A stretch of 9,275 bases of DNA from a virus (lineage: Duplodnaviria > Heunggongvirae > Uroviricota > Caudoviricetes), in the IMG/VR virus record IMGVR_UViG_2671181100_000005. One strand, 5' to 3'. Positions 252 through 7,407 of the stretch are shown piece after piece (within the stretch, counting starts at the first letter, position 1; every line of letters begins with the position of its first letter). Below the pieces are notes generated by a model. It was not told the DNA's origin. It saw only the letters and a list, made by a program, of their open reading frames with translations, and searched no databases. A program made the translations under genes and the position numbers.

Positions 252-794
252 TTACTTGTCTTTATCCGGCTGAAACTTATCAGGCACATTTCCGGTAGTT
301 TCCATCAGATAATCGGACAGCATTCGCGGGATGTTTTCATCAAGTTTTGTGCATGCGTTACAGGCTCTGACAACTTCTTTTTTCAGGCCATCCAGCATGG
401 CGGGGGTCATCTGTGGGAAGCTCCTTTGCATAGTAAGCGGCAGGCTGCCCATGATTGAAGAAATCTGACTCGCCAGTTTTGAAAGCGCATATATACAAAA
501 TTCCGTACTAATCACATCGCCGCGTTCGCGCTCGTTTTTAAGCTCCTGCGCCTCCGCCTGCGCTGTCAGCAATCTGATCCTGACTCGCAAAAGCTCATCA
601 TTATCAATCTCGCCTTTGTCGTCTGTAATCTGGTTAATTGCATTGCTAACCCGATTGTCTATTACGCTGGCAACATCATAAAACGCCTCGCGGCCTTTAC
701 GTTCAACGGGAGTCACTCCCCACTTGTCGAACGCTGTCGCACTTACACGGCAGCTTTGCGCCATGTTTTTTTTGTTCATCAGGTGCGATTTCAT
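252..794 (-). CDS. Terminase small subunit, lambda Nu1-like
   Basis: ORF-track protein matches my recollection of lambda Nu1 across the length, e.g. LLTAQAEAQELKNERERGDVISTEFCIYALSKLASQISSIMGSLPLTMQRSFP versus Nu1 LTRAQADAQELKNARDSAEVVETAFCTFVLSRIAGEIASILDGLPLSVQRRFP, and C-terminal LDENIPRMLSDYLMETTG versus LDELIPGLLSEYIEQSG. Start chosen at ATG 794..792 (GGGGA 6 nt upstream); ATG at 779 is an alternative. Lies directly downstream of the cos site, as in lambda. Confidence 0.85.
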   Translation of the reverse strand: MKSHLMNKKNMAQSCRVSATAFDKWGVTPVERKGREAFYDVASVIDNRVSNAINQITDDKGEIDNDELLRVRIRLLTAQAEAQELKNERERGDVISTEFCIYALSKLASQISSIMGSLPLTMQRSFPQMTPAMLDGLKKEVVRACNACTKLDENIPRMLSDYLMETTGNVPDKFQPDKDK

Positions 795-799
795 CAATA

Positions 800-990
800 T
801 CCCCACTTAAGTAATGTTTCAGGTTGGTGTATTGGCTTTATCTTTTCCTTTTTATTCATAGAGATAGAGCGAACAACAAAACCACCACCAGCACCCGAAA
901 AAGGCTCATAAATAGCGAAAACCCGCGAGGTCGCCGCCCCGTAGCCTACCGGATCGCCGGAAAGGACCCGCCAGCCAGAACGGGCCCTAA
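800..990 (-). other. Lambda-type cos site: cosN 12-nt cohesive end at 928..939 (complement), cosQ-like at about 945..985, divergent cosB-like at about 800..927
   Basis: Reverse complement of 907..940 reads GGGCGGCGACCTCGCGGGTTTTCGCTATTTATGA, identical to the first 34 nt of lambda as I remember them, then diverges. Reverse complement of 941..973 reads GGCGGGTCCTTTCCGGCGATCCGGTAGGCTACG, close to the lambda right end (GACGGGTCCTTTCCGGTGATCCGACAGGTTACG). Confidence 0.75.
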
Positions 991-1390: not shown

Positions 1391-1732
1391 TTACACACGA
1401 GCCAGCGGCTGAACAGAAATACCTGAGCCAACAAACGCGGCAACCTTTGCCGACAGTTCTTTTACAGACTCAGGCCAGTTCAGAGCATCAACATTTAAAA
1501 CACCTGTCTTATAAACCTGTGCCTGTGTTTTTTTCGCTGTGTCGATTTGTACAGCGGAAACATAAACCGCTTTGCCTGCGCTCGTTCCATCCCATACCAC
1601 TAGCGCACCAGTTGCATCTTCCTGCATCAGTGGCGTAAACGCAGGTATTACCCCTTTATTGGCTGAAAATATCCCCAGCGTAGTAACCAGTGCTTCAGTG
1701 CCAGACATGAGTTCAGTGTAATGAGTAGCCAT
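1391..1732 (-). CDS. Head decoration protein, lambda gpD-like
   Basis: PAFTPLMQEDATGALVVWDGTSAGKAVYVSAV and YKTGVLNVDALNWPESVKELSAKVAAFVGSGISV parallel lambda gpD [32 protein letters not shown] and [35 protein letters not shown] (from memory). 113 aa versus 110 aa for gpD. RBS GGGGGAG precedes the ATG. Confidence 0.85.
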   Translation of the reverse strand: MATHYTELMSGTEALVTTLGIFSANKGVIPAFTPLMQEDATGALVVWDGTSAGKAVYVSAVQIDTAKKTQAQVYKTGVLNVDALNWPESVKELSAKVAAFVGSGISVQPLARV

Positions 1733-1741
1733 TGCTCCCCC

Positions 1742-2788
1742 TTAGCCAATGCGAACGGTAACAAAACGATTGATGCGGGCCGGTATTGGCTGTGGTGCTG
1801 AATGTGTCTGCACATATTCAATAGCCGGATCACCAGGCACAATATAGTTTTTCGGTGCAAGTTCGGCTTTAGTCAGCCCCATCCGGATTAGCTCCGGATC
1901 CTGAATACCGCCATAAGCGACAATCCCCTGAAGAGCCGTATTGCCAAGCACCATCAAATCAGGATCAAGGAAATATTTTTCAGTTCCGTCCTCGTCGGTA
2001 TAACGCCCGCTGTAAACAACAATCGCAACATCGCCCATATACCCTTTAAAACTCACCGAATCACCAAGGTCTTTAAGGGCCGTTTCCAGTTCGGAATTAG
2101 AACCACGACGAGTATCCAGAGCCTCTTTTATCGCCCTGAATGAACGGTATTTCTTCCATACATTACCGCCCATAATGATAATATTAGTGACGCCCTCACT
2201 AAATTCTGCGTAGCTCTCAATATCATCATTTGGATCAAAAGCTTCTTTATCCTTACCTGACCACTCAGCACCGCCAGACTGAGTGATGATATTTTGTGGT
2301 TTAATATTCCAGTCCAGCTCATAACGTTCAATACCATCGCCCTCAATGATATTTTTCCCCGTTGTGATTGCCTGAACGGCAAGCCATTCAATACGTGCAC
2401 GAATAGCTTTAGCCTGATTTACAATCGCCTGTTTAACTTTAATATTACGCGCTCCAAAAGCATTGTATTGCTCAGGTGATACACCAGCAGGGCGCACAGC
2501 TAACTTATTTGGATCAATGCTGCTTTTCGGTTTCATATAGCCAGGGCGAATTGTTTTTGATTCGTATCCCTCATCTCGTGAAACTTTACTGCCCACCATA
2601 GGAGAGCAAAACGCCGCGATCGGGATATTTGGATCGTCGATCGTATCAAGAATAATGTCTCTCGATTCAAACATTACCGAGCGAGTGAAAAACAAACTGG
2701 TAAACAACGCATTTAATTTTTTTTGCACATCTTCAGCATTAGCCACCTGCACAAGCTGTGTAGGCGAATATAAGTCAACCATACTCAT
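1742..2788 (-). CDS. Major capsid protein, lambda gpE family
   Basis: Long collinear similarity to lambda gpE as I recall it: NIITQSGGAEWSGKDKEAFDPNDDIESYA, DTRRGSNSELETALKDLGDSVSFKGYMGDVAIVVYSG, MVLGNT, PGDPAIEY. Start set at the MSM motif (ATG 2788, or 2782 with AAAGAGG 6 nt upstream), like lambda E's MSM start. The longer track ORF (start 2869) is probably an upstream extension. Confidence 0.9.
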   Translation of the reverse strand: MSMVDLYSPTQLVQVANAEDVQKKLNALFTSLFFTRSVMFESRDIILDTIDDPNIPIAAFCSPMVGSKVSRDEGYESKTIRPGYMKPKSSIDPNKLAVRPAGVSPEQYNAFGARNIKVKQAIVNQAKAIRARIEWLAVQAITTGKNIIEGDGIERYELDWNIKPQNIITQSGGAEWSGKDKEAFDPNDDIESYAEFSEGVTNIIIMGGNVWKKYRSFRAIKEALDTRRGSNSELETALKDLGDSVSFKGYMGDVAIVVYSGRYTDEDGTEKYFLDPDLMVLGNTALQGIVAYGGIQDPELIRMGLTKAELAPKNYIVPGDPAIEYVQTHSAPQPIPARINRFVTVRIG

Positions 2789-2999: not shown

Positions 3000-3422
3000 T
3001 TAAAACGGTATATTATCGCCGTACGGATCATCATTCCCCGACTGTTGTTTTGCCCTGTTCAGTGCGTCAGTGGCCTGCCCCTGCTGGCCTTTTTTGCCGC
3101 CCGGTCGCGCTGTTCGCGCACTGATCACGCTGTCTGCGATAACCTGCCAGCCCTGCCGCGTTTCGCCGTTCTGGCCTGTCCACTGGCTTACCTGCATGTT
3201 ACCCGCCACGCTCACCAGTTCGCCTTTGTGGTGTTTTGCCAGTGCGTCGGCCTGTCTGCCAAACGCCAGGACGGATAACCACATCATCGCCGTTCCGTCA
3301 TCTGCCTGGCTGCACGGAAGGGGGACCGCCATACTAGCCATCGCCATTTGTGTACCCTTGCTGGTGGTCTTTAACTGCGGATCAGCCACCAGCCGTCCGT
3401 AAGCCGCTATCTGTGCTGTCAT
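3000..3422 (-). CDS. ssb: Single-stranded DNA-binding protein (SSB)
   Basis: OB-fold-like N-terminal region (YGRLVADPQL..., WLSVLAFGRQADALAKHHKGELVSVAGNMQVSQWTGQNGETRQGWQVIADSV) parallels E. coli SSB. Gly/Gln-rich linker and acidic C-terminal tail ...DDPYGDNIPF match the SSB signature ...DDDIPF. Start ATG overlaps the upstream ORF stop (ATGA). Confidence 0.85.
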   Translation of the reverse strand: MTAQIAAYGRLVADPQLKTTSKGTQMAMASMAVPLPCSQADDGTAMMWLSVLAFGRQADALAKHHKGELVSVAGNMQVSQWTGQNGETRQGWQVIADSVISARTARPGGKKGQQGQATDALNRAKQQSGNDDPYGDNIPF

Positions 3423-3664
3423 GCTGTCTGCTCTCCGGTTTTAACGTTGATGGTTGTCACCTGTTCCGCTTCGGCAATCTCCCGTTCTGTCAGCGTGGCA
3501 AAGTTTGCAGCTGCCGTTGTCATGAATGCGCTAATCAGTTCGGGATGTGCTTTCGCATATCCTTCCCCGGCGTTGCGGTCGATGATTTTTATCGACACCC
3601 TTAACCAGTGTTCCGTCAAATCAAGGGCGTGCGATTGTGATTTTTTTATGTGCTTCGCTGTCAT
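3419..3664 (-). CDS. Hypothetical protein (81 aa), translationally coupled to ssb
   Basis: ORF stop overlaps the ssb start in an ATGA arrangement. RBS is weak (GAGA) and there is no recognisable motif. The competing plus-strand ORF in the same region looks non-protein-like. Confidence 0.4.
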   Translation of the reverse strand: MTAKHIKKSQSHALDLTEHWLRVSIKIIDRNAGEGYAKAHPELISAFMTTAAANFATLTEREIAEAEQVTTINVKTGEQTA

Positions 3665-3708: not shown

Positions 3709-3905
3709 CCTTCACCTGTTCACCTTTTGATATTTTATCTTTTAATTCATAATGTTAAGGGGTGAACAGTTTCACAAAAACTATTCACCAACTGTTCACC
3801 ACTGTTCACNNNNNNNNNNNNNNNNNNNNNNNNNNNNNNNNNNNNNNNNNNNNNNNNNNNNNNNNNNNNNNNNNNNNNNNNNNNNNGTGAACAGTGGTGA
3901 ACAGT
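3709..3905. repeat. Iteron array of octamer TGTTCACC / GGTGAACA (P4 ori/crr-type), candidate replication origin
   Basis: Exact octamers at 3717..3724 and 3793..3800 (TGTTCACC) and 3761..3768 and 3896..3903 (GGTGAACA). Gap-truncated copies at 3803..3809 and 3887..3893, plus degenerate copies (3709..3716, 3783..3789). Sits immediately downstream of the primase-helicase gene. Confidence 0.6.
3810..3886. other. Run of 77 N (unresolved or masked sequence) inside the iteron region
   Basis: Directly visible in the sequence. Flanked by a perfect 19-nt inverted repeat (3791..3809 ACTGTTCACCACTGTTCAC; 3887..3905 GTGAACAGTGGTGAACAGT). Confidence 0.95.
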
Positions 3906-3917
3906 TATTCCATAAGT

Positions 3918-5735
3918 TTAATTTTTGCTATCGTCATTAGTGACCGATACACATGATGGCATCCAGTCTTCTGATTCCTCCGTCAGTGTCACGTTTGAAC
4001 GCAAACCGTGCTTCGTTTTCCGTTTCATATACTCCCTGCCATATTCCGCCATTGCCCCCGGCATATCTTTACCGAAGCGCGTCAGTGTTACAGGTTTACC
4101 AAACCCATGTGCCTTCATATAAGCCAGATAGGCATGATAGAGATACCTGCGCGGGCTGAATGGCACAATTTCAGCATTACCCACTAACAGGCCATCACAC
4201 ATTACCGACGCCATGAGATAGCCGCAGAAGTCCACCAGCGAATCACCTTCACGCTTTATCGCGAGTGCTTCTTCTGATTTCTGCTGCTCATATAAAAGGC
4301 GTCTGGCTTCGTCCTGGTCAGCAAACCGTGTAAGCAGATGACGAATCACTACCGCCAGCTCACCTTCTATTTTTTCCGCCAGCATTGAATCGCGTTCGTT
4401 CTCCGGTACAACTTCCGAAAAATTGAATATCACCCGACGTCGCGAGATCCCCCCACTGCGGTCACTGAATGACATAGCGTTATTGTTAACCGCCAGCACT
4501 ACTGCCGGGATACGCGTTGAATATGGGGCTTTATGTTTTGGGTCGATTGCCACCTTGTCACCGCCTGTAATAGCCTTAATTCCCGCCCCATCACCAGCGT
4601 AGCGGGTCATATCCGGCATGATAATCAGCGAAAAGCCAACCACTAACGCGCGTTCCCTTGCATCTTCCAGCGCCTTCATGCTCGCTGATACTGTATTAGC
4701 CTTACCCGCCAGCATGGTGCAAATCTCCGCCATCACGCTTTTACCACTTCCCCCTGGACCTGTTACCTCAATGAATAACTGCCAGTCGTACCGGTTCGCC
4801 AGCACCATGAATAATGCAGCCAGTACGCGATCCGCCTTGCGGTCATTCTCAGCCACCGAACGGCGTAACCACTTCCAGAAATTCGGCGCATGTGTTGCCA
4901 GCGTTTCCCCCTCTGCTGGTGGGCTGAAAGGTAATTCACTGGCAATTAACAACCAGTCGTTTTTGTTATGCTCCCGAAAATTACCTGTTCTGGTATCAAA
5001 TACCCCGTTACTGAATCCAATCAGGTTACGGGCTGTATTCCCCATAACAGGCAAACTTAACTTCATGGTATCGACCGCCGATTTAATGGCGTTCTGCGAA
5101 TAGCTGATCTCCGCATCAATGAAAATCTGTGCCATAGCTCGCTGTAATTCTTTATCCTGTACTGGCTCCCATACAACGCCGTTGTAATGGTGAACAGTGT
5201 CAGAGTCAGCATGAATCGCCAGTTCACCGCCATAATGTGCCAGGAGAACTTCGCCGCGTTGACTTGCTCCCATCTGGTTAAGCGCCAGTGATGAAGCGTT
5301 ATCGTCTTTTACCCGCTCTTTTTTCTTTACAGGCAGTTCAACTACCTTTTTCTTTTCCGCCTGCTCTGCCCGTTCACGTTCCAGATATTCGCGCCAGTTC
5401 TCCCGTTTCTGGCTGTGCATTCCTTCAGGGTAATAATCAGCATCCCTGACACCTGCCGCTGCCAGTTTCTGCCCGATGGTATTAACAAGCCCCGGACGCA
5501 ATAACCCCGCCTGGTAGAGACGCACGCGATAGCGTCCGTCCGGTACGATTTGCAGGTTGTCCAGTTCGGCAAGTTGTTGCTCTCCAAGCCAGACAGGTGG
5601 CACGTTATCGCCAGCCAGTCGCCCGTCCTGTTCCTGCCACTGCTTCGCATGTGCCCACGCATCACTACCCGCAAAAATGATGACTTCCGTCATTTTGTCA
5701 CGCGGCTGGTGTTTTAAATTTGGCGCTTTTTTCAT
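3918..5735 (-). CDS. Replication protein: primase-like N-terminal region fused to an SF3 (D5 / P4 alpha-type) helicase
   Basis: Walker A motif VTGPGGSGKS with a downstream hydrophobic-acidic Walker B-like stretch. Size and position match a satellite pri/alpha gene, followed by its iterons. Start set at ATG 5735, which overlaps the upstream ORF stop (ATGA); the track ORF starts 15 nt further upstream at 5750. Confidence 0.88.
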   Translation of the reverse strand: MKKAPNLKHQPRDKMTEVIIFAGSDAWAHAKQWQEQDGRLAGDNVPPVWLGEQQLAELDNLQIVPDGRYRVRLYQAGLLRPGLVNTIGQKLAAAGVRDADYYPEGMHSQKRENWREYLERERAEQAEKKKVVELPVKKKERVKDDNASSLALNQMGASQRGEVLLAHYGGELAIHADSDTVHHYNGVVWEPVQDKELQRAMAQIFIDAEISYSQNAIKSAVDTMKLSLPVMGNTARNLIGFSNGVFDTRTGNFREHNKNDWLLIASELPFSPPAEGETLATHAPNFWKWLRRSVAENDRKADRVLAALFMVLANRYDWQLFIEVTGPGGSGKSVMAEICTMLAGKANTVSASMKALEDARERALVVGFSLIIMPDMTRYAGDGAGIKAITGGDKVAIDPKHKAPYSTRIPAVVLAVNNNAMSFSDRSGGISRRRVIFNFSEVVPENERDSMLAEKIEGELAVVIRHLLTRFADQDEARRLLYEQQKSEEALAIKREGDSLVDFCGYLMASVMCDGLLVGNAEIVPFSPRRYLYHAYLAYMKAHGFGKPVTLTRFGKDMPGAMAEYGREYMKRKTKHGLRSNVTLTEESEDWMPSCVSVTNDDSKN

Positions 5736-6037: not shown

Positions 6038-6358
6038 TTATCCCCGATTTGAATCAGTATTCGCTTTCTTTATAGCATTTAATGCATCTGTGGCATTTTT
6101 AATGGTGCACCGTAACGAAATATCAAAATGTCCAAGCATTGCCAGTAACAAACCGATATTACCCATATCAATGCGCATGGCCTTTTCGTCATAGTCCTCA
6201 TTTTCTGACGCATGCCACATCAGGCTACCAATTGACGCAACAGCCATTGATATATTGTCAGTAGCCCCATCCGCAGCGGAATAAACCTTTTTAGCAATAT
6301 CATGCTCACAGTTAAAATGCGGATTAATCAGGTACTGGTAATTTGACATATCAGGCAT
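6038..6358 (-). CDS. Hypothetical protein (106 aa)
   Basis: ATG at 6358 overlaps the stop of the upstream 67-aa ORF (ATGCCTGA). RBS AGGGGG is present. Stop lies 6 nt before the next ORF. No recognisable motif. Confidence 0.55.
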   Translation of the reverse strand: MPDMSNYQYLINPHFNCEHDIAKKVYSAADGATDNISMAVASIGSLMWHASENEDYDEKAMRIDMGNIGLLLAMLGHFDISLRCTIKNATDALNAIKKANTDSNRG

Positions 6359-6554
6359 GGCACACCCCCTGACGAATACGGGCGGCGAATACCATCACGC
6401 AGCCAGCCGGGGATTGCTGGCGTGCTTCCTGTTCGCTGGTGGCCACGATGTGAATCACGCGCGGTTGTGCGGTGCTCAGGGCGATAAAACGCCAGATGTA
6501 TTTATTCAGGTTGTACGAGTCCCGCCCTTGCGGGTGTATGGTATGATTTCTCAT
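6351..6554 (-). CDS. Hypothetical protein (67 aa), first gene of the minus-strand operon leading into the primase
   Basis: This is the last 67 codons of the 348-aa track ORF, starting at ATG 6554 with GAGG 5 nt upstream. The upstream part of that ORF is low-complexity and antisense to a better plus-strand gene. Confidence 0.45.
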   Translation of the reverse strand: MRNHTIHPQGRDSYNLNKYIWRFIALSTAQPRVIHIVATSEQEARQQSPAGCVMVFAARIRQGVCHA

Positions 6555-6697
6555 AGCTGCCTCGATAATCTTGCTATCGTTGGTGGTTAGAAGCCCCGTT
6601 ACTGCTCCTACAGTGCGGGGTTTCGTCGTTTCTGCACCTTGCATTAACAAGGTGTAAGCAACTTTATTTATAGGTGGCTTACATGTCAATGCTTTTA

Positions 6698-6729
6698 TGT
6701 AAGACTTTTTATGTGTATATTGTCTTACA
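6698..6729. promoter_or_regulatory. 8-bp inverted repeat (TGTAAGAC ... GTCTTACA) in the divergent promoter region; candidate operator
   Basis: TGTAAGAC at 6698..6705 and GTCTTACA at 6722..6729, 16 bp apart, overlapping a TATATT -10-like hexamer (6716..6721) about 30 bp upstream of the 6751 start. Confidence 0.35.
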
Positions 6730-6750
6730 CTTTCATTGAGAGGATTACAG

Positions 6751-7056
6751 ATGGCTACAGGTTCAAAAAACGCAAAATCACAATCACTGACAGCTCGGAT
6801 CCCGCATGATGTTATTGAAGGCATGGAATCCGTAAAACTGGACGGTGAAAGCAACGCCGGATTCATAGTAACCGCCATGCGCGGTGAAATCGCCCGCCGC
6901 CAGGCAGAAGGAAGCGGAGAAAACCTCCTGGTTTCTTCGCTCGATGCCCTAGCGCAGGTGGAAAAAATCGGAGTCAAAGCCGCCGAGGAGATCGGGCAAC
7001 TCGTCACCGTCGCGCGTGAAGAACTCCAGCGACGCAAGGTCAAAGAGCAGGAATAG
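6751..7056 (+). CDS. Small DNA-binding-like protein, possible ribbon-helix-helix regulator (101 aa)
   Basis: ATG at 6751 with GAGAGGA 7 nt upstream. N-terminal SLTARIPHDVIEGMESV resembles RHH (CopG/Arc-like) beta-strand-helix starts; the C-terminus is predicted helical and charged. Divergent from the minus-strand operon. Confidence 0.5.
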   Translation: MATGSKNAKSQSLTARIPHDVIEGMESVKLDGESNAGFIVTAMRGEIARRQAEGSGENLLVSSLDALAQVEKIGVKAAEEIGQLVTVAREELQRRKVKEQE

Positions 7057-7113
7057 CCACTATCAGCGCCATAGTTTGAGGAACGCAGGCGCATTGCTTT
7101 ACAGGACAGCACC

Positions 7114-7293
7114 ATGAGCGACACAGAATCAACCAAAACACCATCACCAACTCGTAAGAGACGACGCAAAAATATAGCGCATGAACATGAATCAGAAAGA
7201 TTCGCACCTTGTTCGTTTGCTCTTGAGAAATTCCTTAAAGAGCACAGGAAAAAGCTCTCGTTGCAAACCTTGGAACGAACCAAATCTGACTGA
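7114..7293 (+). CDS. Small basic protein (59 aa), hypothetical
   Basis: Hand-translated ORF MSDTESTKTPSPTRKRRRKNIAHEHESERFAPCSFALEKFLKEHRKKLSLQTLERTKSD, below the track's 60-aa cutoff. AGGA lies 7 nt upstream. Followed by a strong terminator hairpin. Confidence 0.35.
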   Translation: MSDTESTKTPSPTRKRRRKNIAHEHESERFAPCSFALEKFLKEHRKKLSLQTLERTKSD

Positions 7294-7358
7294 TCACATT
7301 GCCCACCAGCCGCAAATGTGGCATTGTTGGTGATGCGTTCAAGTTTAGTGTGTATCCA

Positions 7359-7386
7359 TTGGCGACCGCCCCCGGTCGCCTTTGTT
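7359..7386 (+). terminator. Rho-independent terminator (plus strand), between convergent genes
   Basis: GGCGACCG (7359..7366), loop CCCC, CGGTCGCC (7371..7378), then TTTGTTTT. Confidence 0.6.
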
Positions 7387-7407
7387 TTATATGTCATATG
7401 CTCCCCT

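What the first reader, a model, noticed from the sequence alone, without database searches (positions are those of the whole stretch)
3709..3905. P4-type TGTTCACC iterons downstream of the helicase gene, combined with lambda-type packaging
At least four exact and several partial copies of the octamer occur in both orientations within about 200 bp. From memory, the P4 ori and crr are built from this same octamer and are bound by the alpha protein. The replication protein here is therefore probably alpha-like in origin recognition, even though the packaging module is lambda-like.
Basis: partly seen in the sequence, partly recalled or inferred. Interest (0 to 1): 0.5.

Follow-up and report, generated by a model that had tools for sequence, protein, structure and literature searches.

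The report
P4-type replication origin of an E. coli PICI
The repeated TGTTCACC octamers are real and most likely form the replication origin of a common E. coli phage satellite (a PICI), built from the same repeat and layout as the origin of satellite phage P4 and read by a P4-alpha-like helicase; it is a known kind of feature.

Summary
Observation confirmed. Window 3709-3905 holds 4 exact TGTTCACC, 2 more cut by a 76-N masked run (3811-3886), and 2 degenerate copies; 0.32 exact copies are expected per window. An E. coli genome that matches the window apart from 1 mismatch shows 110 bp under the mask. The full origin there has 12 iterons (9 exact) in 229 bp.

Interpretation supported. The P4 record annotates TGTTCACC as its "ori type 1 repeat". 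The adjacent 605-aa protein is 50% identical to P4 alpha across helicase and C-terminal domain. It matches the solved alpha origin-binding domain (1KA8, E 1.4e-24). A Nu1-like terS, an exact lambda cosN and gpE/gpD-like genes are present.

The element is a catalogued Gram-negative PICI of the EcCICFT073 family, inserted at cspD-clpS. An origin 3' of pri-rep was published and tested for that family.

What I add:
- The origin is two inverted ~110-bp units. One is colinear with P4 ori1, the other with a P4 crr repeat.
- Across 84 loci the iteron sequence co-varies with a short segment of the C-terminal domain.
- The protein lacks alpha's zinc-ribbon/Toprim primase.

Verdict: a new member of a known kind, of modest interest.

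The parts
3709..3810 (.). Distal origin unit (crr-like). Iterons: 3709 CCTTCACC(+), 3717(+), 3761(-), 3782 TATTCACC(+), 3793(+), 3803(+, last base masked).
   Evidence: Colinear with each P4 crr 120-bp repeat. It is an inverted repeat of the proximal unit (I1: 56 nt, 75% complementary).
3725..3760 (.). 36-bp AT-rich spacer (83% AT) between convergent iterons. Candidate unwinding element.
   Evidence: The equivalent 35-bp spacer is present in P4 ori1 and crr. The unwinding role is inferred.
3811..3886 (.). Run of 76 N. In a relative with only 1 mismatch over the unmasked window, 110 bp lie here. They carry a 26-bp central region, iterons (-)(-degenerate)(-)(+), and the 35-bp, 80% AT spacer of the proximal unit.
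   Evidence: All 25 sampled matches among 594 E. coli genomes span the stretch at near-full length.
3886..3905 (-). Last two iterons of the proximal (ori1-like) unit, 10 bp apart and 12-14 nt from the stop codon.
   Evidence: GGGTGAACAGTGGTGAACAG is identical to P4 ori 9309-9328.
3918..5735 (-). 605-aa alpha-like initiator/helicase, called 'Pri-Rep' in the PICI literature. It has D5_N, an SF3 helicase (Walker A GPGGSGKS) and a C-terminal origin-binding domain.
   Evidence: Pfam D5_N, DUF5906 and Pox_D5. 50% identity to P4 alpha 320-771. Its 90%-identity cluster has 3078 member sequences.
3936..4253 (-). C-terminal origin-binding domain (aa 495-600), homologous to the solved P4 alpha winged-helix domain.
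   Evidence: 1KA8 at E 1.4e-24. 49% identity to alpha in this domain.
3966..4034 (-). Segment aa 568-590 (EYMKRKTKHGLRSNVTL...), the putative wing. It co-varies with iteron sequence.
   Evidence: Assigning it to the beta-hairpin wing is an inference from winged-helix topology; my AF2 model of this domain failed.
5361..5735 (-). N-terminal domain (aa 1-125). It is PICI-specific and stands in place of alpha's zinc ribbon and Toprim primase.
3000..3664 (-). Downstream co-oriented genes: an 81-aa hypothetical protein (3419-3664) and an SSB (3000-3422). Likely replication accessories.
   Evidence: Pfam SSB. Same order in EcCICFT073 and EcCIIHE3034. No terminator or promoter was found in the origin.
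252..939 (-). Lambda-type packaging signals: exact cosN GGGCGGCGACCT (928-939) upstream of a Nu1-like terS (252-794).
1391..2782 (-). gpE-like major capsid protein (1742-2782) and gpD-like decoration protein (1391-1732).
   Evidence: Homologues c1499 and c1500 are described in EcCICFT073 (PMC6092414).
8037..9275 (-). Tyrosine integrase of the island. The att core ATGATAGTTAT flanks the island in L001 at 4710 and 15184, outside the window.
   Evidence: Same att core as EcCIIHE3034 and EcCI18098 in Table S1 of PMC6092414.

Best explanation
The cluster is the vegetative replication origin of a ~10.5-kb phage-inducible chromosomal island (PICI) inserted between cspD and clpS.

Layout. The origin consists of two inverted copies of a ~110-bp unit. 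Each unit has two direct iterons, a 35-36-bp AT-rich spacer, one inverted iteron and then three direct iterons. The iteron is (A/C)ACTGTTCACC.

Proposed mechanism:
1. After induction, the 605-aa protein encoded just upstream binds the iterons through its C-terminal winged-helix domain. This domain is a homologue of the P4 alpha origin-binding domain.
2. Adjacent sites lie about 10 bp apart, so several monomers sit on one face of the helix.
3. The SF3 helicase domains assemble and open an AT-rich spacer.
4. Replication starts, helped by the island's SSB.
5. Priming probably comes from the host or the helper phage, because the protein lacks alpha's zinc-ribbon/Toprim primase.

Relation to P4. 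P4 keeps one unit as ori1 and two units as crr, 4.5 kb apart. This island has an ori1-like and a crr-like unit side by side.

Shown here: the repeats, their layout, the homologies and the covariation. Inferred: binding, melting at the spacer, and the source of priming.
For: Non-random cluster.
- 4 exact copies lie in 197 bp against 0.32 expected per window.
- A near-identical genome has 12 copies in 229 bp.

Same octamer and geometry as P4.
- The proximal half aligns with P4 ori1: three (-) sites about 10 bp apart, 21-22 bp, one (+) site, a 35-bp AT spacer, then two (-) sites 10 bp apart.
- The distal half aligns with each crr repeat.
- All five units align as one unit type.
- P4 crr also lies directly 3' of alpha.

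Protein homology.
- 50% identity to alpha's helicase plus C-terminal domain.
- 1KA8 at E 1.4e-24.

Covariation across 84 loci (80 from the genome scan plus L001-L004).
- Nearly every locus has an iteron cluster within about 330 bp after the stop codon.
- At least 7 iteron types occur.
- All 63 T[G/A]TTCACC loci whose C-terminal segment could be parsed have the segment K[RK]x[TS]KxG[ILM]. Other iteron types have other segments or indels.
- E. ruysiae L008 is 91% identical in the helicase and 85% in the C-terminal domain helices, but only 30% in aa 568-590. Its iteron is TGTCTACC.

Phylogenetic footprint. Over 11 loci from several enterobacterial genera, 88% of iteron columns are conserved against 51% elsewhere, and order and orientation are kept.

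Experimental precedent. In EcCICFT073 the region 3' of pri-rep has the same two-unit layout with TGTCTACC. The pri-rep-ori fragment drove plasmid maintenance, and deleting rep or ori impaired it (PMC6092414).

No second cluster. The island has no other iteron cluster.
Against: - Nothing was tested experimentally on this allele.
- A third of the origin is masked in the window and was read from a near-identical genome.
- In P4, the site directly 3' of alpha (crr) is a cis-required element, not the initiation site. The exact start point here is therefore unknown.
- The 'wing' assignment rests on generic winged-helix topology, because the AF2 model of this domain was unusable (pLDDT 42).
- That alpha binds type I iterons is taken from the classical P4 literature (Ziegelin et al. 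1993). I could not open that paper here.
- Many surveyed loci are related, so the 63-locus count overstates the number of independent events.
Confidence: 0.85

Rival explanations
1. The cluster is only a crr-like cis-acting enhancer or copy-control (handcuffing) site. The true initiation site would lie elsewhere, for example inside the gene as in P4's second replicon.
For: P4 crr occupies the same position, directly 3' of alpha. An isolated TGTTCACC lies inside the gene at 5189.
Against: The half nearest the gene is colinear with P4 ori1, not only with crr. The island has no second cluster. The internal copy encodes T-V-H-H and is kept in relatives that use other iterons, so coding constraint explains it. 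In EcCICFT073, the rep gene plus this 3' region sufficed for plasmid maintenance (PMC6092414).
Confidence: 0.08
2. The repeats are mainly transcriptional operators through which the protein regulates read-through into the downstream 81-aa gene and SSB.
For: The origin sits between co-oriented genes, with no terminator or promoter detected. Bound protein would therefore meet transcription.
Against: Twelve sites in two inverted units with AT-rich spacers are typical of an origin. The same design is P4's origin. A regulatory side effect is possible, but it does not explain the conservation of the layout across genera.
Confidence: 0.05
3. The cluster is a chance pattern, or a packaging or integration site (cos, pac or attP arm sites).
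For: None beyond AT-richness.
Against: 0 of 200 shuffles reach the count. cosN is at 928-939. The att core is ATGATAGTTAT at the island ends. The motif tracks the replication protein, not the integrase or terminase.
Confidence: 0.01

Closest known systems
Satellite phage P4 replicon (alpha protein with ori1 and crr)
   Same: - Identical type I iteron TGTTCACC, with the same CTG extension.
- Same ~110-bp unit: two iterons, a 35-bp AT-rich spacer, an inverted iteron, then more iterons.
- An iteron unit directly 3' of the initiator gene.
- SF3 helicase plus winged-helix origin-binding domain at about 50% identity.
   Different: - P4 has three units: ori1, plus two direct crr repeats 4.5 kb away. 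This island has two units, adjacent and inverted.
- Nothing like P4's three tandem type 2 decamers appeared in the repeat scan of the origin region.
- There is no talpha terminator and no Cnr homologue. The upstream gene is a DUF4222 protein with no similarity to Cnr.
- The N-terminal 145 aa replace alpha's zinc-ribbon/Toprim primase.
- The morphogenesis genes are lambda-like, not sid/delta/psu.
Gram-negative PICI origin, EcCICFT073 / EcCIIHE3034 (Fillol-Salom et al. 2018, PMC6092414)
   Same: - Same gene order: int, HTH, Icd-like, DUF4222, pri-rep, origin, hypothetical, SSB, capsid, decoration, (terS).
- Same att site as EcCIIHE3034.
- Same two-unit origin layout 3' of pri-rep.
- N-terminal domain about 70% identical.
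   Different: - The iteron is TGTCTACC in those elements against TGTTCACC here.
- The C-terminal domain is only 33% identical.
- The distal spacer of EcCICFT073 is GC-rich.
- The paper describes Pri-Rep as only distantly related to alpha. This allele shares P4's iteron and unit design.
[quoted passage not shown]
   Same: The origin lies immediately 3' of the initiator-helicase gene, with iterons flanking an AT-rich stretch. The initiator is a self-loading SF3-type helicase. SaPI Pri-Rep 7OLA matches the helicase core at E 2.4e-10.
   Different: Different iteron sequences and a different DNA-binding domain. There is no detectable similarity outside the helicase core.

Membership tests
P4 alpha/ori-crr replicon | Multiple type I iterons TGTTCACC in both orientations | tested here: met
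   9 exact and 3 degenerate copies; P4 has 11 exact.
P4 alpha/ori-crr replicon | Initiator with a C-terminal winged-helix origin-binding domain homologous to 1KA8 | tested here: met
   (E 1.4e-24, aa 502-598). (49% identity).
P4 alpha/ori-crr replicon | SF3 helicase domain with D5_N | tested here: met
   (51% identity; Walker A GPGGSGKS conserved).
P4 alpha/ori-crr replicon | N-terminal DnaG-type primase (zinc ribbon plus Toprim) | tested here: not met
   No Zn_Ribbon_Prim or Toprim Pfam hit, whereas alpha has both. No BLASTP match to alpha residues 1-319. The invariant AG and AG motifs (A22-G23, A76-G77) lie where I judge, by eye, the Toprim Glu and DxD would fall; this is not a tested alignment. 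The fold resemblance is only weak.
P4 alpha/ori-crr replicon | Bipartite origin: ori1 and crr about 4.5 kb apart, both required in cis | tested here: not met
   A single composite cluster and no second cluster in the island. Both unit types are present but adjacent.
P4 alpha/ori-crr replicon | Cnr copy-number regulator and sid/delta/psu hijacking genes | tested here: not met
P4 alpha/ori-crr replicon | The initiator actually binds the iterons and drives replication | not testable with these tools
   Needs EMSA or footprinting and a replication assay.
Gram-negative PICI (EcCICFT073 family) | Integrase, AlpA-type regulator and pri-rep, unidirectional, in an island of about 10 kb at a PICI-specific att site | tested here: met
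   The att core ATGATAGTTAT flanks 10.5 kb between cspD and clpS, as listed for EcCIIHE3034.
Gram-negative PICI (EcCICFT073 family) | Origin immediately 3' of pri-rep: two iteron sets flanking an AT-rich region | tested here: met
   Same layout in EcCICFT073. Description in PMC6092414.
Gram-negative PICI (EcCICFT073 family) | Capsid-type gene and/or terS, a helper cos site, and no tail or lysis genes | tested here: met
Gram-negative PICI (EcCICFT073 family) | Induction and high-frequency transfer by a helper phage | not testable with these tools
   Experimental property. Shown for EcCICFT073 with lambda and phi80 (PMC6092414).

The most novel reading that the evidence does not exclude
This PICI family and P4-type satellites use the same iteron and the same origin unit. 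The alpha proteins of resident or incoming P4-like elements and this PICI's initiator could therefore fire or titrate each other's origins, giving cross-talk or competition between satellites.

More generally, the alpha/Pri-Rep family would be a natural set of at least 7 orthogonal initiator-iteron pairs. Their specificity would be set by a segment of about 10-15 residues (the putative wing), shuffled independently of three alternative N-terminal modules. Two of those modules lack a recognisable primase.
Probability: 0.3. Interest if true: 0.5.

Novelty: new member of a known kind. Interest (0 to 1): 0.3.

Why it matters
For annotation, this gives a precise and unannotated origin for an element found in 594 of 5426 complete E. 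coli genomes. It also shows that the 'DNA primase' label on its initiator is probably wrong for the N-terminal part.

For satellite biology, it shows that P4 and at least one PICI lineage share a replicon module: the same iteron, the same origin unit and about 50% identical helicase and origin-binding domains. The founding PICI paper treated the two proteins as only distantly related.

The covariation between iteron type and a short protein segment offers a ready-made experiment on how winged-helix initiators read DNA. It also offers a set of candidate orthogonal origin/initiator pairs.

None of this changes the basic picture. An iteron origin 3' of the initiator gene is what is expected in a PICI.

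Tried and rejected
- AF2 model of the C-terminal domain (aa 490-605) with a shallow alignment: pLDDT 42, unusable. The 'wing' therefore remains an inference.
- P4 primary papers (Ziegelin 1993; Yeo 2002) are not held. Literature searches for the octamer, for crr, and for PICI iterons found no paper linking PICI iterons to P4's.
- DUF4222 protein as a Cnr analogue: no similarity.
- Promoter and terminator scan of the origin: none found.
- Rfam scan of the window, for example for P4 CI/seqA-like RNAs: no hit.
- The internal TGTTCACC at 5189 as an 'ori2': rejected as a coding coincidence (T-V-H-H), also present in relatives with other iterons.
- My first alignment of the EcCICFT073 units used the wrong registers (last two rows). 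The layout was read directly from the sequence instead.

Full report
**1. The observation**

The window contains exact TGTTCACC at 3717 (+), 3761 (-), 3793 (+) and 3896 (-). One isolated copy lies at 5189 (-). Shuffles predict 0.32 copies per window, and none of 200 reached five.
- With one mismatch allowed, TATTCACC at 3782 appears, together with two copies cut by unknown bases at 3803 and 3886.
- CCTTCACC at 3709 is a two-mismatch copy.

Megablast against complete E. coli genomes found many chromosomes with 100% identical flanks. In these the masked stretch is 110 bp, not 76. Outside the mask, the window differs from E. coli CFS3313 (locus L001, 5702-15010) at 1 of 9199 positions.

In L001 the cluster spans 229 bp (9410-9638). 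It has 9 exact copies, one with 1 mismatch and two with 2 mismatches, and the consensus is (A/C)ACTGTTCACC.

**2. What surrounds it**

The window is most of a ~10.5-kb island between clpS and cspD. On the minus strand it carries, in order:
- a tyrosine integrase;
- an HTH regulator;
- an Icd-like gene, a hypothetical gene and a DUF4222 gene;
- a 605-aa 'DNA primase family protein';
- the iteron cluster;
- an 81-aa gene and an SSB;
- a gpE-like major capsid protein and a gpD-like decoration protein;
- an AlpA-type regulator;
- a Nu1-like small terminase.

An exact lambda cosN 12-mer lies at 928-939, just upstream of terS. The 11-bp core ATGATAGTTAT flanks the island.

That att core, the cspD-clpS site and the size match EcCIIHE3034 and EcCI18098 in Table S1 of Fillol-Salom et al. 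2018 (PMC6092414). That paper reports:
- the EcCICFT073 pri-rep-ori segment supports plasmid maintenance, and deleting rep or ori impairs it;
- EcCICFT073 carries capsid and decoration genes and is mobilised by lambda and phi80.

The element and the kind of feature are therefore known.

**3. Comparison with P4**

The P4 record (NC_001609) annotates 'ori type 1 repeats' in ori (9310-9413) and in crr (4291-4590). crr lies directly 3' of alpha. The exact repeat is TGTTCACC, with 11 copies in the genome.

The resemblance goes beyond the octamer.
- The half of the island's cluster nearest the gene aligns with P4 ori1 in the same order and spacing. There are three (-) sites about 10 bp apart, 21-22 bp, one (+) site, a 35-bp AT-rich spacer, and two (-) sites 10 bp apart. 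A 20-mer (GGGTGAACAGTGGTGAACAG) is identical.
- The far half aligns with each 120-bp crr repeat: two (+) sites, a 35-36-bp spacer, then a (-) site.
- The two halves are inverted repeats of each other beyond the iterons (56 nt, 75% complementary).
- All five units (two from the island, P4 ori1, and the two crr repeats) align as one ~110-bp unit type.
- The spacers are 83% and 80% AT, against 47% for the island as a whole.

P4 has three units split between two sites 4.5 kb apart. This island has two, head to head.

**4. The protein**

The 605-aa protein is 50% identical to P4 alpha over alpha residues 320-771, which cover D5_N, the SF3 helicase and the C-terminal domain (E 5e-163). Residues 502-598 match PDB 1KA8, the solved alpha origin-binding domain, at E 1.4e-24. 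[quoted passage not shown]

The first ~145 residues do not match alpha's zinc ribbon and Toprim. They are instead about 70% identical to the N-terminus of EcCICFT073 Pri-Rep.
- An AF2 model of aa 1-125 is confident (pLDDT 91.8).
- Foldseek finds nothing.
- The invariant motifs IIFAG and YQAG sit, by my reading, where a Toprim Glu and DxD would be.

I read this domain as at most a catalytically dead remnant. That reading is a hypothesis.

**5. Evidence that the repeats are read by the C-terminal domain**

EcCICFT073 and EcCIIHE3034 have the same two-unit layout 3' of pri-rep, but with TGTCTACC as the iteron. Their C-terminal domain is only 33% identical to the window's.

A scan of one genome per species returned 80 loci across Enterobacterales. 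Nearly every locus has an iteron cluster within about 330 bp after the stop codon. The iteron types are:
- T[G/A]TTCACC (P4, this island, Kluyvera, Raoultella, Klebsiella, Citrobacter, Pectobacterium, Pantoea, Xenorhabdus, Photorhabdus);
- TGTCTACC/T;
- TCTCCACC/T (Yersinia, Rahnella, Erwinia);
- TGTCCGCC (Serratia);
- TGTCCACC;
- TATCTACC;
- TATCCACC.

The iteron type tracks the segment that follows 'EYGxxY' in the C-terminal domain.
- All 63 T[G/A]TTCACC loci whose segment could be parsed have a 9-residue stretch of the form K[RK]x[TS]KxG[ILM].
- The other iteron types have different sequences, or insertions of 1 or 5 residues.

The clearest natural experiment is E. ruysiae L008. Compared with the window protein it is 91% identical in the helicase and 85% in the helices of the C-terminal domain. 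In aa 568-590 it is only 30% identical, and its iteron is TGTCTACC.

In winged-helix proteins the segment after helix 3 is the beta-hairpin wing, which contacts DNA in RFX1 (PMC2777425). I could not confirm that assignment, because my model of this domain failed (pLDDT 42).

Among 11 loci with TGTTCACC iterons from several genera, 88% of iteron columns are conserved against 51% of other columns. Order and orientation are kept.

**6. Mechanism and rivals**

The best explanation is a theta-type origin.
1. The initiator binds the iterons through its C-terminal domain.
2. It assembles its SF3 helicase and opens an AT-rich spacer.
3. Priming comes from the host or helper, and the island's SSB assists.

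The repeats, the layout, the homology and the covariation are shown. Binding, the melting site and the priming source are inferred.

Rivals:
- *A crr-like enhancer only.* This is weakened by the ori1-like half, by the absence of any second cluster, and by the EcCICFT073 result.
- *The internal copy at 5189 as a second origin.* It encodes T-V-H-H and persists in relatives that use other iterons, so it is probably coincidental.
- *An operator role.* This is possible as a side effect, since no terminator or promoter lies in the origin.
- *Chance, cos or att explanations.* These are excluded.

**7. Novelty and score**

The 251-bp origin is present in 594 of 5426 complete E. coli genomes. The sampled matches span it at near-full length, and it is never annotated in them. 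The protein's 90%-identity cluster has 3078 members.

In the library I could search, no paper links PICI iterons to the P4 octamer. The 2018 paper calls Pri-Rep and alpha distantly related. I cannot see its Figure 2a, which lists iteron sequences and may include this allele.

I rate this a new member of a known kind.
- the shared P4/PICI origin unit;
- the covariation between iteron and protein segment;
- the missing primase domain.

Interest: 0.3.

Noticed in passing
window 3811-3886: A run of 76 N sits in the middle of the origin. Genomes with identical flanks carry 110 bp there, including 4 iterons and an AT-rich spacer. The mask either changed the length or hides an assembly gap caused by the repeats.
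   Followed up: yes
[not shown]
   Followed up: partly
loci L002, L005-L084 (junction 'LNQMGASQR'; window about 5250-5276): Three unrelated N-terminal modules are fused at the same junction to the same helicase/origin-binding core. They are the alpha-type zinc-ribbon/Toprim (~335-370 aa), this PICI type (~125-160 aa), and a third 'SDALFSCxYxWVNGH' type (~135-145 aa; Pectobacterium, Serratia, Yersinia). Module type is independent of iteron type.
   Followed up: partly
window 928-939 (-): An exact lambda cosN 12-mer, GGGCGGCGACCT, lies between the AlpA-like gene and the Nu1-like terS. This is the same relative position as cos and Nu1 in lambda.
   Followed up: partly
L001 4710-4720 and 15184-15194 (outside the window): The direct repeat ATGATAGTTAT flanks the island. 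It equals the att core published for the cspD-clpS PICIs EcCIIHE3034 and EcCI18098. The island is ~10.5 kb, and the window lacks its last ~1 kb on the terS side.
   Followed up: yes
L003 7160-7225 (EcCICFT073 origin, distal unit): In EcCICFT073 the spacer of the distal unit is GC-rich and holds a short palindrome (TTACTGGC...GCCAGTAA). In the window both spacers are AT-rich. The two units may not be functionally equivalent.
   Followed up: no
E. coli genome search: Some genomes hold up to 6 copies of this same origin (655 places in 594 genomes; 2 on plasmids). Several islands with one iteron specificity therefore coexist in a single cell.
   Followed up: no
LR881103.1 11711-11955 (phages collection): A 16.5-kb record deposited as 'Escherichia phage vB_KppS-Ant' (an induced prophage) carries a 75%-identical copy of the whole origin. 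It is probably a satellite rather than a phage.
   Followed up: no
window 6351-7397 (-): The mechanical ORF list shows a 348-aa ORF here. RefSeq instead annotates a small Icd-like gene (-) and a YlcI/YnfO gene (+) in this stretch. The long ORF has no Pfam hit and is probably not a gene.
   Followed up: no
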